Source: Octopus vulgaris
Taxonomy: Eukaryota
Reading direction: 5' to 3'
DNA: 64,000 bases
Assembly: GCA_951406725.2 (NCBI GenBank)
Contig: OX597836.1
Span: 8,556,001 to 8,620,000, forward strand
Shown: positions 1 to 59,313 of the stretch, in pieces
Layout of the letters: each line of letters opens with the position of its first letter
Position numbering within the stretch: position 1 is the stretch's first letter
The notes under the pieces: generated by a model
The model's database searches: none
What the model was told of the DNA's origin: nothing
What the model saw: the letters and a program-made list of their open reading frames with translations, nothing else
Translations under genes and position numbers: made by a program

Positions 1-716
1 TATATATATATACACATCTATATTAGTATATATGCATACATATATATATATATATTAGTGTACATATATACCTGTATGTATATTTATTAGTATTTATTGT
101 GCGTGTGTACATATGTGCACGAGTACATAAATATGTATATGTACGTATACGTGCACGTATTATTGCTTACAAATATGTGTGTGCGCGTGTATGTGTGTAC
201 ACGCACGCACATCGACGCAAGCCCACATACACACACAACACACACACACACACATACACACATACACACACGCACATTACATCTCGCCTCCCCGCCTTCC
301 CGCCCCGCCCATCTTCTCCCTCCTATGAATGGAAGCGAAATTACGCCAACCAGTTACAAGAGTTTTAACCCATTCCGTATACAATTTCTTAACATGATAC
401 GCCACATACAATATATATACATATATATAAATACATATACATATATATACATATATATACATATATATATGTATATATGTCTGGGTTGCACTTGCTTGAC
501 AAGTGATTTGATCCGAGTGGTGTCTTGGGACGGAGCACAATTACCTCATGGCAGAGTCATTAAAACGCTTTCGTAACATTCATAAGCAGTGTTTTATGGG
601 TTTCTGTTTTCCTTTACGACACCGAGGTCGACTCTGCCATTTCATCCATTTCGGGGGTCGATGGAACGTAGTATGAGTACTAGCCGCGCTTTTGGGGTCG
701 GTGTAATCGATTTAAA

Positions 717-2230: not shown

Positions 2231-2399
2231 TATATGTGTGCATATATATATGTCTATATATAATATACATGCAATATAATATATATATATATATTTATAT
2301 ATATGTGCATACATATATATATATTCATACACACATACACACGTACATACACAGACAGACATATATACACACACATATGTATGTATGTATGTATGTATG

Positions 2400-2434
<35 letters not shown>

Positions 2435-2475
2435 GCACACATGCATTTATATAGACAGACATACACACACGTATG

Positions 2476-2523
<48 letters not shown>

Positions 2524-3008
2524 CATAAATATATATATATAGAATATAATGTGTGGGAGTGAGTGCGCGCGTGTGTGTGTGCGTGTCAGGTTCAGAACTC
2601 AGATTAGTAAAAGCCTGTTAGTAGTAACCATGTAAGGGCAAAACACTCCGAGCTTAGCGAGCCGGGCCGTTGCCGCCGAAGCCCACAATCCCCTAACAAG
2701 CATGTTTGGTGAGGAATGTGAATGGTGAGCATTAAGCAGGATGAAACACAAAACCTGTCAAAAGGGCAACGAACTTAGGGCAAGTCAACAACCACCCAAC
2801 CCGTATGTAAAAGGTTTTATGCAAAATCTTTAGGACGTCCGCACTACGATCATAAGATCGTCGGTTCGATTATTGGGCAGGGTGCCCCATTGTGTCTTTG
2901 GGCAAAACATTTCAATATAAGGACGAAAACAAACCAATATCGGTTCTCGAGTAGTGGTGGTAAACAAGCATAAACAGAAACACACACAAACACGCGCACA
3001 AACACACA

Positions 3009-3110
<102 letters not shown>

Positions 3111-3117
3111 TCTTGTG

Positions 3118-3332
3118 TTCTTTTACTTGTTTATGCGGTCATGCTGGAGCACCTCCTTGAAGGGTTTTTTTTTGTCGAAGAATACCATTCCGATACTTAT
3201 TCTTTGTAAGCGTAATAGTTATTCTGTTGGTTTCTTTTGCCGAACCGCTAATGTTACGGAGACGTAAACACACCAGCATCGGTTGTGAAACGAAGCTGGA
3301 GGGACAAACAGACACAAAACACACTCACATAA

Positions 3333-3378
<46 letters not shown>

Positions 3379-3710
3379 GTATATATATAGTCTGATATTC
3401 TGATACTTGTTTCAGTCATTTCACTGTGACCATGCTGGAGCACCGCCTTTTAGTCGAGCAAATCGACCCCATGACTTATTCTTTGTAAGCGTAGTACTTA
3501 TTCTATCGGTCTTTTTTTGCCGAACCGCTAAGTTACGGTGACGTTAACACATCTACGTCCGTTGTCAAGCGATAGTGGGGAGACAAACGTAGACACAAAA
3601 CACACACACACACACACACACGGCAGGCTTCTTTCAGTCTCCATCTACCAAAATCCACTCACAAGGCTTTGGTCAGGCCGAGGGGGATAGGAGAGGCACT
3701 TGCCCAAGGA
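3118..3710 (-). mobile_element. SINE family B, two partial copies
   Basis: Reverse complement of the family B 3' part (GGCGGTGCTCCAGCATGG...TGACTGAAACAAGT; CTTAGCGGTTCGGCAAAA), matching full copies at 23566 and 38223. Confidence 0.85.
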
Positions 3711-4045
3711 ATTTGCACCACGTCGTTTCGAGATCGACCAGAATCTCAAGATTCCACCAAAACATTCATTGAATTAAAAATAAATGTTTTGTTAAGGAAA
3801 AAAGAAAAAAACCTTCTCACAATCAGATATTCTACAGAAAACAAAAATCAAACATGGAATGGTAAGGTTCTCACTCACTCCCACTTCCCCCCACTCTCAC
3901 ACACACTCTCTCCCTCCCCATATATATATATACATGTGTATATATGTGTGTGTGTGTGTACATATATATATATATATAGGTAAATATATAGGTAAATAGA
4001 TAGATAGATAAATATGTGTGTATATATATATATATATGTGTGTGT

Positions 4046-4085
<40 letters not shown>

Positions 4086-4352
4086 TTGAGAAGGAGAAAC
4101 AGAAAGTGAGAGAAAGAGAGACAGAGAGAGAGATTAAGGGAGTTACCTTATCAGGCATCCTATTTTGGCATTATATATCTATACATACATACGCGAATGT
4201 GTATTTATACACACACACACACATACACACACACACACACACACACATATAATAAACACACACGCACATATATATATATATATATATAATATACACAAAC
4301 ACACACACACTCATATATATATATATATGTATGTATATGTATGTATATATAA

Positions 4353-4538
<186 letters not shown>

Positions 4539-4925
4539 AATATATATATATATAGTACCCACCACCACCACACACACGCACATATATGCTCCTATGCATG
4601 TAGAGTTATATAATTTATCATTATATTCTGGTTAGCGTTTCTCGTTTTCGTTTTTCATTCAATTTTTCATCGTCGAAACTCTAAACGATATTTTTAGACC
4701 TTTCACTGCCGCCTCACTTTCTCTGGCCACCTGCCTGCCTGTCTGCCTGCCTGCCTGCCCGTCTGTCTCTCTTCCCCTCTGTCATTCTCTCTCTCTCTCT
4801 CTCTCTGGCAACCTGGTTAAATCCTGTCTTTCTTTCTCCTTGTCTCTCTCTGTCTCTTTCTTTCTCCCTCTTCAATTATTCTGGTTTCTTCAAACTTCCA
4901 CTCGTATGTATGCATGTGTATGTAT

Positions 4926-5097: not shown

Positions 5098-5246
5098 CAT
5101 ACATGCATATATTACATACATACGCACACACGCATAGATACACATTTCTATCTATCCATCTATCTATATTTATATATGTATGTATTGAAGTATGTGTGTA
5201 TGTGTTTGTATATATATATATATATATATGTATGCCTGCATGCATG

Positions 5247-5357
<111 letters not shown>

Positions 5358-5489
5358 ATCTATCTATTTATATACACATATGTATGTACGCATGTGTATA
5401 TGTATGTATGCGTATGTAAATATATATGTTTGTATAAGCACGGTCATTGCTGGAAATAACTCGGTATGGCAAATATTCCGAAACCAAGG

Positions 5490-5524
<35 letters not shown>

Positions 5525-5904
5525 ACACACAGACACACACACACACACATGCACACACACACACATGCGCACATGCACAATATTAAAATCACGCACGCTT
5601 ACTTGTTAACCTACCCACCTGCCCACCCACCCTCGAATCCTTTTTAGTCCATTGCAACAACCCACCCACGACCCTCACTACCAACATCCTCTACAGCCAT
5701 CTAAGGGCCGAACAATCTCCCACTTTGTCTGTCTGTCTGTCTCTGTCTGTCTCTCTCTCTCTCCCTGACACACCCTCTCTCACCCCATTACTCTCATCCC
5801 CCCTCTCCCACCCCCTCTCACTCTCTCGCTTGTTTTTCTTTCTTTCTTTCTTTCTTTCTTTCTTTCGTTCTTTCTTTCCTTCTTTCTTTCCTTAGATTGC
5901 GTAG

Positions 5905-18507: not shown

Positions 18508-19150
18508 CTAGCATTATGACCAGTCTTTGCCGGGTCATAGTGCTAGTGCATGTATATATGCGTATATATGTGTACATATTACATGTACATCTATATATAT
18601 ATATATACATCTACACATAAAATACAAAATACAAAGTTATCGCTAGTGATAACAATACTGAAAAAAAAATAAAACAGACTGGAATTGTAGGATTATTCCA
18701 TTTCTGCACGCTAATTTTATTTTAATTTATTCCCATTCATGTGAAACCATTTATTCATGTTCAAATCCTTGATGCAATTTTATACCAATTGCTATTTTTA
18801 CTTTTGTTATGTTACGGTTATATTATACTTTAGTTTGATTTTAATTATTACTTACTACACATAATTCAATTGTTATTATTATTTTTATTGTTAAAGTGAA
18901 AATATCTGACATAAAATAAGGAAATGTTTTTGTTTCACTTTTAACACGTAATACTGAAATAGTGGAGAAGATATGATATTGCTATGGGCTCGCTCTAGGC
19001 AAGAAGTTGAACATTTCTTTTGCCCATGAAACTACATGGACCCTAAGTAAGGCATGTGTAAAATTTGAATGAAATTGGTTGTGTAGTTCTCAAGTTTTAG
19101 GAAAACACACAGACAGGCAGACAGACAAACACACATTCTCAGTTTTATAT
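18508..19150 (-). mobile_element. Non-autonomous Helitron-like element
   Basis: Minus strand ends in hairpin GACCCGGCAAAGACTGGTC followed by ...GCTAG|T. The other end has (GACA)n and AAAATTTGAATGAAATTGG..TAGTT..TTTTATATAT, the layout typical of non-autonomous Helitrons. Sits in TA-rich sequence with no TSD. Confidence 0.65.
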
Positions 19151-19214
19151 ATATATGTATGTGTGTGTGTGTGTGTATATATATACACACATATATATGC
19201 ATATATGTATATAT

Positions 19215-19267
<53 letters not shown>

Positions 19268-19270
<3 letters not shown>

Positions 19271-19585
19271 CTCCGCCGGTTACGACGACGAGGGTCCCAG
19301 CTGATACGATCAACGGAACAGCTTGCTCGTGAAATTAACGTGCAAATGGCTGAGCATTCCACAGACACGTGTACCCTTAACGTAGTTCTCGGGGATAATC
19401 AGCGTGACACAGAGAGTGACAAGGCTGACCCTTTGAAATACAAGTACAACTCATTTTTGCCAGCTGAGTGGACTGGAGCAACGTGAAATAAAGTGTCTTG
19501 CTCAAGGACACAACGCGTCGCCGGGAATCGAACTCACAACCTTACGATCATGAGCCGAATGCCCTAACCACTAAGCCACGCGCCC

Positions 19586-33700: not shown

Positions 33701-33740
33701 TATGTTCCTATAACCTGTGTTAATTCTGTAACCCTTTAAA

Positions 33741-34063
33741 ATGGAAGATAAGAAAGTTCATTTTCGGCACTTGATGCTTTTCTTTTTCCGTAAAGGGAAA
33801 AACGCCTCACAAGCAACCAAACAAATATATGCAGTTTACGGTGATGTTTCTTTATCCGAAAGAACTGTACGGAAGTGGTTGGCAAGGTTCCGAGCTGAAG
33901 ATTGTAGCCTTATTGATAAAGAGCGATCAGGCAGACCATCCGCTACAGATGATGACCAAATCAAGTCATTAATTGAGAATAACCCACATTGCACAACCCG
34001 AGGATTGGCAGAAAGCCTCAACCTATCAAAATCCGCCGTTCATGAGCACCTGGTAAAGCTTGG
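33741..34063 (+). pseudogene. Mariner transposase N-terminal HTH domain, truncated before the catalytic DD34D domain
   Basis: MEDKKVHFRHLMLFFFRKGKNASQA...YG...LSERTVRKWLARFR...L.D.ERSGRP...IENNPHCTTRGLAESLNLSKSAVHEHLVKLG, then runs into the right TIR. No WVPHEL motif or catalytic domain. Confidence 0.92.
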
Positions 34064-34563
34064 GCAATGCCAAGTATTAATTAACCTTTTCGGCTCGAAA
34101 CTTCAGGACAACCCAATATATAAAAGATGAGATGGTCGTGGTTGGAACGATGATAATAATCTTTTCTACTATAGGTACGAGGCCTGAAATTGGGGGGAAT
34201 TTTGTCCGGCGTACTAACATTTCTGCCTATTGACCGGCCGCCTTAGCATTGGACAAAATATTCCCCCGCAGTATTCGATCCGGCGCTTTGAGGTTAAATC
34301 CTCGCCGATGCCGACGATTATCCTTCATTTTTTTTTCGGGATTGATGAAAGAAGTGATCAACCCAGGGGCTCACGATCATCCGATCCCTAACAACGCCGA
34401 ACTGAATCTCTTACGATATTTCTTCAATTTGATTTACTTTTTTTTTTGCCGGTGGTGGCAGTGGTAGTGGTGGGAGTGGGACTGGAATCGGTGGCGGAAT
34501 GTTGCGACATCGGATTATAACGATAACAGTTGACGCAGCAGACGGAAACATGAATAAACATGG

Positions 34564-57160: not shown

Positions 57161-57874
57161 GGTATGTTTGTTTCTACATATGTTTATAGGTATAGGTATG
57201 CTTTTACGTCTGTATGTGAATGCCTTTAATCCCATTTCTGAATCACATTGTGCATGTGTGTATAAGTTCACGTAAACACACACACATACACACACATATA
57301 CATTTATATAATATATAATATATACATATATATATGTACATACATATATAATATATATATGTATGTATGTATGTATTACCTGGAAAATACTAAAGTCAAA
57401 AAGCTAGAAATAATCCAACCAATGGACAGTTTAGAAGTGGCTAAGTGTACCTAGGTTCCACTTTACTTATCGATGATTATTCTTGACAAGTCAGATTTAT
57501 GAGTTCTAGGTCACAGTGTCAACAAAATGTCACGTGGTACTCAAGACCCTTTCTGGTCACCTAATTCTAGCCTAAATCATTCGAATAATTAATAAATGAT
57601 AATTAGTAGTTGGTATTTAGAATCTCATCATTAGTAAAATTAAGTAGTAATGTGTTGTTGTTTTTGTTTTTAAGAGGGCACTATGTAGCTTCTAGATTTG
57701 GTTGCTATTTCTAGTAAACCAAATTACTGCTTAGGGCAATGTTTCTTAACCCTTTTTAGCCTGTGGACTCCTTCAGTCCCCTATTTCTCTTTACTGGACC
57801 TTCATAGCCATTCGCTGTATATATAAAATTAAAATCTCAATGTATTTTTATAATTAAAAATTTATGAGGAATTG

Positions 57875-58128
57875 ATCTATATTTAAGAGATGAGGAATTA
57901 TGTACGGGAATATGGCGTAGGGGTTAAGAGCGCGGACTACTAACCCCAATATTCCGAGTTCGTTTCTAGGCAGTGACCTGAATCGAAAAATACCTTAGGA
58001 ATGCGAACTCAGGTTCGAAATTTCCCCAAGACACCTGATGAAGGCTGGAGAGTATATCAGCCGAAACGTTGTGTCAACAACAAACAAGATGAGGACAAAT
58101 GTCCGTTAAATGTAAATAATGTAAATAA
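57875..58128 (+). mobile_element. tRNA-headed SINE-like element carrying a hammerhead ribozyme
   Basis: A-box TGGCGTAGGGG (57913), B-box-like GAGTTCGTTTC (57956), hammerhead 58030-58075, (GTAAATAAT)2 end. Interrupts MITE unit 1 with an imperfect 13-bp TSD TTATGAGGAATTG (57862-57874) / TTATTAGGAATTG (58129-58141). Confidence 0.8.
58030..58075 (+). ncRNA. Minimal type-I hammerhead ribozyme motif
   Basis: GACAC-CUGAUGA-A-GGCUGG(AGAGUAUA)UCAGCC-GAAA-CG-U-U/GUGUC. 5-bp stem I, 6-bp stem II, intact core, ACGU palindromic stem III. Confidence 0.85.
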
Positions 58129-58938
58129 TTATTAGGAATTGTATAAAAAAACCTGTTAAACTATTTTGTGTTTGTAGAAGCATAGCTAAATTATTGGAGA
58201 CAAACTTTCACAACAAAATCTTATATGGACCCCCCCAACAAGGGTCATATGGGCTTCAGTTGGGAACCTCTGATCTAAATGGTCAATCACGCTGCTAGAA
58301 ATAACAGTTATATCTCTCGCCAGTCAGAGTTTACATCAATGGTTCTCAACCATCTTTTTGCTCGTGGACCCCTTCAGTCCCCTATTTTACTCCACAGGAC
58401 CTCCATAACCACTCACTGTATATAAAAAAAAATCTTAGTGTTTTCATAATTAAATATTATTAAGAATTCCATAAAAAGATTAAAATATTTTGTGTATTAA
58501 AGAAGCATAACCAGTTTATTGCAGATAAATTTTAACAAGAAAATCTTGTATGGACCCTAGCTTTAGAACCAATGCTCTGAATGGTCACTCAACTGCTAGA
58601 AATAACGGTCATATTTCTCTCCAATCGCAGTTTACATCAGTATTTCTCAACCATCTTTTTGCCCAGGGACCCCTTCAGTCCCCTATTTTACTTTACTGGA
58701 CCTCCACAGCCATTCACTGTATATAATATAAAAACAAAATCTTACTGTTTTTTTTTAATTAAATATTATTAAGAATTCCATAAAAAGATTAAGACATTTT
58801 ATGTATTGTTGATGCATAACCAATTTATTGCAGATAAATTTTAACAACAAAATCTTATACGAACCCACCAAGTGTCATAAGGGCCCTAGTTGAGAGCCAT
58901 TGCCCTATATGGTCACTCGATCTGCTAGAAATAACAAT

Positions 58939-59313
58939 GGATGGAAGCACTCCGTCGGTTACGACGACGAGGGTTCCGGTTGATCCGATGAACGGAACAG
59001 CCTGCTCGTGAAATTAACGTGTAAGTGGCTGAGCACTCCACAGACACGTGTACCCTTAACGCAGTTCTCGGGGATATTCAGCGTGACACAGAGTGTGACA
59101 AGGCCGGCCCCTTTGAGATACGGGTACAACAGAAACAGGAAGTAAGAGTGAGAGAAAATTGTGGTGAAAGAGTACAGCAGGGATCACCACCATGCCCTGC
59201 CGGAGCCTCGTGGAGCTTTAGGTGTTTTCGCTCAATAAACACTCACAACGCCCGGTCTGGGATTCGAAACCGCGAGTCCGCTGCCCTAACCACTGAGCCA
59301 TTGCGCCTCCACG
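58939..59313 (-). mobile_element. SINE family C (tail type 3) with 11-bp TSD
   Basis: GAAATAACAAT at 58928-58938 and 59314-59324. Family C head with the tail of 19268-19590. Confidence 0.9.

What the first reader, a model, noticed from the sequence alone, without database searches (positions are those of the whole stretch)
57862..58141. Hammerhead-SINE: tRNA-like Pol III head fused to an intact ribozyme, with its 3' end apparently inverted to the 5' side
Seen: a 254-bp insertion splits MITE unit 1 (sibling units are uninterrupted) with a 12/13 TSD. It carries A/B boxes, then a fully paired hammerhead, and ends GTAAATAAT-GTAAATAAT with no poly-A or LINE-type tail. The 31 bp before the head (57875-57905) reverse-complement to GTACATAATTCCTCATC..., which continues that terminal repeat and shares TGAGGAATT with the target site. 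Established: SINEs normally borrow LINE 3' tails; Penelope-like insertions often carry inverted pieces; Schistosoma Sm-alpha is a precedent for a tRNA-promoter repeat with a hammerhead. Inference: this is a SINE mobilised by a Penelope-like element rather than a LINE, with ribozyme-defined RNA ends. I cannot check whether the family is already catalogued.
Basis: partly seen in the sequence, partly recalled or inferred. Interest (0 to 1): 0.9.

Follow-up and report, generated by a model that had tools for sequence, protein, structure and literature searches.

The report
Penelope retrotransposon with tRNA-like promoter end
This 254-base insertion is the lone end-repeat of a protein-coding Penelope retrotransposon whose front end is a tRNA-like sequence that likely acts as an RNA polymerase III promoter, which would let one element both encode its enzymes and shed many short SINE-like copies.

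Summary
The insertion is real: 254 bp, 12/13 duplication, tRNA-like head, hammerhead core, inverted 3' piece. It is not a separate SINE borrowing a Penelope element. Head, hammerhead and tail together are the terminal repeat (pLTR) of a coding Penelope/Poseidon-type family. They follow its endonuclease stop codon (28 of 29 loci) and run on into its ORF (23 of 30 loci). The hammerhead lies inside the first codons. It is the minimal, dimer-type form, and no copy end maps to its cut site. The inverted 31 bp is the known Penelope 'tail'; here the two arms abut exactly. Across 51 two-armed insertions the tail is at one end in 43 and at both in none. New: a tRNA-like A/B-box unit heads an autonomous element. 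65 of 70 head-bearing copies start within -12..+8 of it, the 2.66-kb majority unit has no T4 terminator, and 14 of 14 insertions in 1 Mb of arbitrary DNA were ORF-less (about 39,000 copies). Pol III transcription is inferred, not shown. No intact ORF was found. Repbase and Dfam could not be checked.

The parts
57862..57874 (+). Left target-site duplicate (13 bp, one mismatch to the right one)
   Evidence: family mode 12 bp
57875..57905 (-). Inverted arm: the Penelope 'tail', unit positions +239..+269 (+1 = first base of the head); in the ORF frame it reads VHNSSSLKYR
57906..57977 (+). tRNA-like head (+1..+72): A box 57913-57923, B box 57956-57966, each with one mismatch to the family majority in this copy
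57978..58000 (+). 5' leader; the family's (AAT)n run is deleted in this copy
58001..58126 (+). First 42 codons of the Penelope ORF, from the ATG, open in this copy
   Evidence: matches N-terminus of intact relative P0003; continuity with ORF
58030..58075 (+). Minimal type I hammerhead inside the ORF: stem I 58030-34/58071-75, core 58035-41, unpaired A 58042, stem II 58043-47/58058-62, palindromic stem III with no loop, predicted cut 58070/58071
58088..58128 (+). 5' arm and loop of the tail stem-loop; the 9-bp repeat is an in-frame Val-Asn-Asn repeat; forward arm ends at +237/238 (proximal start site of reverse transcription, inferred)
58129..58141 (+). Right target-site duplicate
57737..58902 (.). 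Host: three tandem ~300-bp MITE-like units with short terminal inverted repeats; unit 1 is the one split (boundaries approximate)

Best explanation
The insertion is a solo terminal repeat of a coding Penelope/Poseidon-type retrotransposon whose repeat begins with a tRNA-like A/B-box unit that likely serves as an RNA polymerase III promoter, and it was likely inserted by two-ended priming on an RNA starting just ahead of that unit. SHOWN: unit order is head (+1), (AAT)n, ATG (+110), hammerhead (+139..184), tail (to +273), rest of an ~838-codon RT + GIY-YIG ORF, stop, 29 bp, next head. Most copies are ORF-less, start at about -7..+1, end at one of two 3' sites and often have ~12-bp duplications. 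INFERRED: transcription starts ~13 nt before the A box. The element's protein binds the start of its own ORF RNA and makes a staggered ~12-nt cut in AT-rich DNA. The two DNA ends then prime reverse transcription at two internal sites on either side of the tail stem (about +238 and +273). The proximal cDNA runs to the RNA 5' end, giving head-to-loop; the distal one is fixed in inverted orientation at the other end. In this copy it stopped after 31 nt, exactly where the other began. Because initiation is internal, any transcript from the head yields a SINE-like solo copy. The hammerhead would cleave only as a dimer or with protein help and does not set the ends.
For: Forward pLTR sequence right after the endonuclease stop in 28 of 29 loci picked by the ORF end. 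Tail continuous with the ORF N-terminus in 23 of 30 loci; head-body-ORF in 5, two of them starting at the head's 5' end. RT motifs and C-terminal GIY-YIG without a Cys-rich linker. Intact unnamed relative P0003 (847 aa, 55%) has the same hammerhead-coded peptide at its N-terminus. 5' ends: 65 of 70 at -12..+8, mode -7. Tail at exactly one end in 43 of 51, at both in 0 (Fisher P 1e-7; 15 of 18 and 0, P 0.0065, in the set not picked on its 3' end). Arms abut in this copy. No T4 run in the 2,655-bp majority unit; 2.9-4.8 expected, P 0.025-0.007. Two other PLE families here have 8-9 per ORF. PMC11167929: PLE protein cuts and extends both strands, starts at two internal sites that define the tail, and needs no hammerhead cleavage.
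Against: No direct evidence of Pol III use: the only raw RNA reads (related organism, unstranded) showed both directions equally and no start or end pile-up. The head is not called a tRNA by Rfam or ARAGORN; it is only tRNA-like (best z 8.1 to a genomic tRNA-Arg, with Ala and Thr at 7.5, among 30 loci of 6 isotypes). The T4 result is modest and depends on the majority sequence: a first version had 2 runs, P 0.27, and a third family's 1-kb ORF piece has only 1 run. The -7 mode is partly ambiguous because an inverted arm of +1..+9 mimics -7..-3. The two characterised PLE promoters overlap a 5'-UTR intron (PMC8557442), which implies Pol II (my inference). Many inverted arms are long and overlap the forward arm, which needs two templates or a re-used one. 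No intact ORF among 150 scored of 5,429 candidates; longest open frame 569 aa.
Confidence: 0.6

Rival explanations
1. Passenger head: an old tRNA-derived SINE fragment with an (AAT)n tail landed in the pLTR and was carried along. The element is Pol II-transcribed like other PLEs, and solo copies are ordinary pLTR by-products ending at a Pol II start or at the small palindrome at -6..+4.
For: Head + (AAT)n looks like a short SINE; other repeats in the genome have heads 67-73% alike. Known PLE promoters are internal and overlap an intron. Solo hammerheads from truncated PLEs are common elsewhere (PMC4209133). Boxes decay like the rest: both intact in 8 of 31 heads.
Against: The 5' boundary sits where a Pol III start would be for an A box at +8 (spacing recalled). 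Only 29 bp separate the stop codon from the head, and solos lack even those, so little else is left to be a promoter. The unit lacks T4 runs. No separate head-only family was seen.
Confidence: 0.25
2. One reading: solos became a true self-propagating SINE lineage (Pol III RNA from solo copies mobilised in trans by the Penelope protein), and this produced most of the ~39,000 copies.
For: 14 of 14 insertions in 1 Mb of arbitrary DNA are ORF-less. Long-form solos keep promoter-like boxes, hammerhead and tail. The head G/A allele differs (4 of 29 ORF-linked vs 14 of 34 solo).
Against: Four other sites show the same alleles in solos and ORF-linked repeats, and the G/A difference may come from the query copy carrying A. 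Internal initiation on full-length transcripts already gives solos. This rival is compatible with the best explanation as an added route.
Confidence: 0.12
3. A retrozyme or Sm-alpha-like element whose RNA ends are cut by the hammerhead, or a LINE-mobilised SINE.
For: Pol III promoter followed by a hammerhead is the Schistosoma layout (PMC6765202). Retrozymes derive from pLTRs (bioRxiv 2026.07.22.740005). The core is conserved in the majority: 70 of 196 copies keep it intact, and the main variation is at the free position 7, loop II and CpG sites.
Against: Copies are dispersed or inverted, not head-to-tail arrays; no outer end at +170..190; stem III has no loop; the 3' part is Penelope coding sequence, not a LINE tail.
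Confidence: 0.03

Closest known systems
Penelope/Poseidon-clade PLEs, e.g. Poseidon of Anolis (PAc; PMC11167929) and PLE structure as in PMC8557442
   Same: Single ORF with RT and C-terminal GIY-YIG, pLTR overlapping the ORF start, hammerhead at the ORF start, inverted 5'-truncated arm, 30-40-bp tail at one end, two 3' ends.
   Different: Here the pLTR begins with a tRNA-like A/B-box unit, solos starting there dominate, and the majority unit has no T4. The characterised PLE promoters overlap an intron.
Minimal hammerheads of metazoan PLEs (PMC4209133)
   Same: Type I, 5-bp helix I, unpaired base before helix II, no helix III loop, dimer-dependent.
   Different: Helix II is 5-6 bp rather than 7-8; activity untested here.
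Schistosoma Sm-alpha / Sj-alpha (as reviewed in PMC6765202)
   Same: Pol III-type promoter followed by a hammerhead in a short repeat.
   Different: Those are tandem, non-coding and released by cleavage. This one is the end of a coding element, is dispersed, and its ends do not map to the cut.
Non-LTR retrozymes (PMC7229834; bioRxiv 10.64898/2026.07.22.740005) and non-autonomous Chlamys such as MRC1 (PMC8557442)
   Same: Short non-coding derivatives of pLTRs.
   Different: No head-to-tail arrays here; the retrozyme texts read mention no tRNA-derived head.
Cassandra TRIMs (bioRxiv 10.1101/2023.07.14.548913, abstract)
   Same: A Pol III promoter captured in a terminal repeat.
   Different: 5S-derived, LTR class, non-autonomous. 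Here it is tRNA-like and sits in a protein-coding PLE.
Octopus tRNA SINEs OK/OR1/OR2 (Ohshima and Okada 1994; seen only as cited in PMC4824008 and PMC4758252)
   Same: tRNA-derived heads (Arg for OR1/OR2, recalled); possibly the same animal group (my guess).
   Different: OR1/OR2 are cited as CORE SINEs; this body is Penelope coding sequence.

Membership tests
EN+ Penelope-like element (Penelope/Poseidon) | One ORF with PLE-type RT and C-terminal GIY-YIG endonuclease | tested here: met
   RT motifs and RVT_1 hit, 569-aa real frame, 838-aa majority frame. Pfam GIY-YIG did not hit the two pieces tested; the domain is read from motifs and from relatives.
EN+ Penelope-like element (Penelope/Poseidon) | pLTR on both sides of the ORF from partial tandem arrangement | tested here: met
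   28 of 29 downstream, 23 of 30 upstream, 2 partial tandems
EN+ Penelope-like element (Penelope/Poseidon) | Minimal hammerhead in the pLTR | tested here: met
   (motif only)
EN+ Penelope-like element (Penelope/Poseidon) | Inverted 5' arm and 30-40-bp tail at one end | tested here: met
   60 of 84 with inverted arm; tail at one end 43 of 51
EN+ Penelope-like element (Penelope/Poseidon) | No Cys-rich linker between RT and EN (separates it from Neptune/Nematis) | tested here: met
   absent in L143, present in L061, L068, L070
EN+ Penelope-like element (Penelope/Poseidon) | Placement in the clade on a tree with named references | tested here: inconclusive
   quick tree of 23 proteins without named PLE references; only separates it from two other local families
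tRNA-derived SINE | tRNA-related head with A and B boxes | tested here: met
   box motifs in majority; z 7-8 to genomic tRNAs; Rfam and ARAGORN negative
tRNA-derived SINE | Transcribed by RNA polymerase III | not testable with these tools
   indirect only; RNA lay uninformative
tRNA-derived SINE | Non-autonomous family separate from its partner, with a LINE-derived or A-rich 3' end | tested here: not met
   whole sequence, head included, is part of the coding element
tRNA-derived SINE | Short copies propagate as their own lineage | tested here: inconclusive
   alleles mostly shared with ORF-linked repeats, small biased sets
Non-LTR retrozyme / Sm-alpha type | Head-to-tail tandem units released by hammerhead cleavage | tested here: not met
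   dispersed or inverted copies; ends not at the cut
Hammerhead ribozyme | Self-cleavage | not testable with these tools
   monomer cannot close stem III; dimer or protein-assisted cleavage inferred from PMC4209133 and PMC11167929

The most novel reading that the evidence does not exclude
A protein-coding, once autonomous retrotransposon that replaced its Pol II promoter with a tRNA-type Pol III promoter, shed all T4 terminators so that Pol III reads the whole 2.66-kb unit, translated its RT-endonuclease from that RNA, and so acted as its own SINE factory. Its insertions also show that the two cut DNA strands use different start sites.
Probability: 0.3. Interest if true: 0.85.

Novelty: new variant of a known kind. 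Interest (0 to 1): 0.62.

Why it matters
It collapses the usual SINE/partner split: the 'SINE' is the promoter end of its own mobiliser, which offers a direct route by which SINE-like families arise from Penelope elements and would be mislabelled by repeat pipelines. If Pol III transcribed the whole unit, an autonomous retroelement made protein from a Pol III RNA, which specialists would not expect. The 43-to-0 one-tail rule, with ~12-bp duplications and arms that abut in this copy, turns the open question of how Penelope tails and inversions form into a test for the existing in vitro system.

Tried and rejected
Rfam at gathering and E-value thresholds and ARAGORN: no tRNA or hammerhead call. 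Window ORF list: only repeat-derived frames and a mariner-like piece. Pfam GIY-YIG search found 148 matches, mostly a young 781-aa family; it shares no repeat with the element and was rejected as partner. Search with a distant relative's RT piece for a sister family: the listed places largely repeat those, and the 4 stretches fetched were the same family. Sequencing runs: no RNA holder listed. Raw RNA reads of a related organism were unstranded and gave no ends. Contigs of four runs (organisms B-E) cover the stretch and show loose ends at the head start and both 3' sites, but their depth is no copy number and no listed piece spans head to ORF. First T4 test on a thin majority was not significant; the join failed and was redone. 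The careful tree did not finish; the quick tree was used. A 5'-UTR intron was considered; no GT..AG joint there among the 15 listed RNA joints, 53 not shown. Ten literature searches listed no title describing a PLE with a tRNA-derived pLTR; most listed papers were not opened and subscription journals are missing. PMC4795812 is not held. Earlier findings: three look-ups empty, one unrelated near-match.

Full report
Observation. The window lies at G000:C23:8556001-8620000 in a 2.8-Gb, 227-contig genome. That it is an octopus is my guess from size and repeat content, used only to pick papers. The insert 57875-58128 splits the first of three tandem MITE-like units and is flanked by a 13-bp duplication with one mismatch. 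The 31 bp at its left reverse-complement to the family's next bases. The hammerhead core is present, but stem III is ACGT with no loop, so it cannot close in a monomer. This is the minimal PLE form with an unpaired base before helix II described in PMC4209133 (part 1 of 4 and passages). Rfam and ARAGORN report nothing relevant. The copy differs from the family majority at 12 aligned bases, lacks the (AAT)n run and has one mismatch in each box.

It is a large family. The first search had 3,569 candidates (40 scored, 30 fetched). These share head, (AAT)n, hammerhead and a tail ending at +273. In 100 arbitrary 10-kb stretches I found 14 insertions, none with ORF sequence. That gives about 39,000 copies, Poisson range 21,000-66,000. 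The sample was clumped, 11 in the first 400 kb and 3 in the next 600 kb, so the range is too narrow.

The partner is the element itself. A young 781-aa GIY-YIG family did not match. But locus L100, picked by the hammerhead-tail query, has endonuclease-coding DNA running into the head. Of 29 loci picked by that ORF end, 28 have forward pLTR sequence right after it. RT motifs lie upstream. At the other end, the tail continues into the ORF's N-terminus in 23 of 30 loci picked by the N-terminal region. Five of these also carry the head: two after an ORF 3' end (partial tandem), two starting at the head's own 5' end, one starting inside it. The majority unit is 2,655 bp with an 838-codon frame from an ATG at +110 and 29 bp from stop to the next head. 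In the window that ATG is 58001 and 42 codons are open; the 9-bp repeat is Val-Asn-Asn in frame. An intact unnamed relative, P0003, has the same hammerhead-coded peptide. There is no Cys-rich linker, unlike three other local families, which fits Penelope/Poseidon by the criterion in PMC8557442 (passages). The family is old: no full ORF among 150 scored of 5,429 candidates.

How copies end. Among 70 head-bearing copies from three queries (one locus counted twice), 65 start at -12..+8, 21 at -7, and 4 run beyond -20; L010 also runs on, through a deletion. The -7 calls are partly ambiguous because of a palindrome at the junction. 3' ends are bimodal, about +227..248 and +272..281, in the loop of and beyond an 8-9-bp stem. 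Of 84 insertions, 60 have an inverted arm and 29 have duplications of 10 bp or more, mode 12 (control 0.4%). Of 51 with two body-type outer ends, the tail is at one end in 43, at neither in 8, at both in 0. In the 18 not picked on the 3' end the counts are 15, 3, 0. In the window the forward arm ends at +237/238 and the inverted arm begins at +239. No outer end lies at +170..190, around the cut at +179. PMC11167929 (parts 1-2 of 4) shows a PLE protein cutting and extending both strands, starting at two internal sites that define the tail, predicted to be a dimer, and not needing hammerhead cleavage. The one-tail rule suggests each strand takes a different site; that step is my inference.

The head. 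It has A- and B-box motifs at +8 and +51 and aligns over about 70 bases with genomic tRNAs: best Arg(TCG), z 8.1, then Ala and Thr at 7.5. Only 6 isotypes were among the 30 loci, so the source is not fixed. Three other repeats in the 1-Mb sample have heads 67-73% alike. The hammerhead part follows the head in 26 of 29 head-picked loci. The final majority unit has no T4 run, against 2.9 (synonymous shuffle, P 0.025), 4.2 (P 0.016) or 4.8 (P 0.007) expected. An earlier majority had two runs and P 0.27. Both resolved to three T with more copies: 86 of 104 at +130, and the 30-locus majority at +366. Eight real copies have 10 T4 and no T5 in 13.9 kb; two other families have 9 and 8 per ORF, a third has 1 in 1 kb. 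This is suggestive, not proof. RNA reads were uninformative. How a Pol III RNA would be translated is unexplained.

Comparison. Every PLE trait here is known. Promoter-plus-hammerhead repeats are known in Schistosoma (PMC6765202, passages). pLTR-derived retrozymes are known (bioRxiv 2026.07.22.740005, parts 1-3 of 5; PMC7229834, passages). Pol III promoters in terminal repeats are known in non-autonomous Cassandra (abstract and outline). Cephalopod repeat papers mention no such element in what I saw: PMC13282606 (parts 1-2 of 3 and a supplement search), PMC8967140 and PMC6962438 (passages), PMC4824008 and PMC4758252 (passages). Ten searches listed no title on a tRNA-headed PLE. Repbase, Dfam, SINEBase, deposited libraries, bioRxiv supplements and the 1994 and 2015 octopus papers were not seen and may hold the family under some label.

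Verdict. Real feature; member of the Penelope-like elements, not of the SINEs as defined, though the solo copies look and may work like SINEs. New variant of a known kind; interest 0.62.

Noticed in passing
L061 (G000:C16:20834500-20841500), ORF 2245-4587, repeats 430-885 / 5217-5672: A young PLE family with many 781-aa open frames, an upstream ORF, a Cys-rich linker (Neptune-like) and 456-bp repeats 99% identical; by eye a hammerhead variant with the U3-A8 core near 5560-5610.
   Followed up: partly
L023, downstream flank: By eye, another copy of the element sits in the same MITE-like family as the window copy, at a nearby but different site.
   Followed up: no
L087, L091, L096 upstream of the hammerhead part: A different repeat ending in (AAT)n is joined to head-less copies at the (AAT)n run, perhaps by annealing at the microsatellite.
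   Followed up: no
L106, L113, L117-L119, L128-L130 (contig C31); L353-L355 (contig C17): The same deleted copies recur with shared flanks, i.e. segmental duplicates rather than independent insertions; in C17 they adjoin an inverted LINE-like ORF piece.
   Followed up: partly
L176, junction between inverted and forward arms: A short telomere-like TTAGGG stretch lies between the two arms.
   Followed up: no
window 33732-34130: A 132-aa frame resembling a mariner transposase N-terminus (recalled likeness).
   Followed up: no
window 58937-59200: Another GC-richer interspersed repeat follows the MITE-like array; a related stretch is near 19073-19486 by ORF likeness.
   Followed up: no
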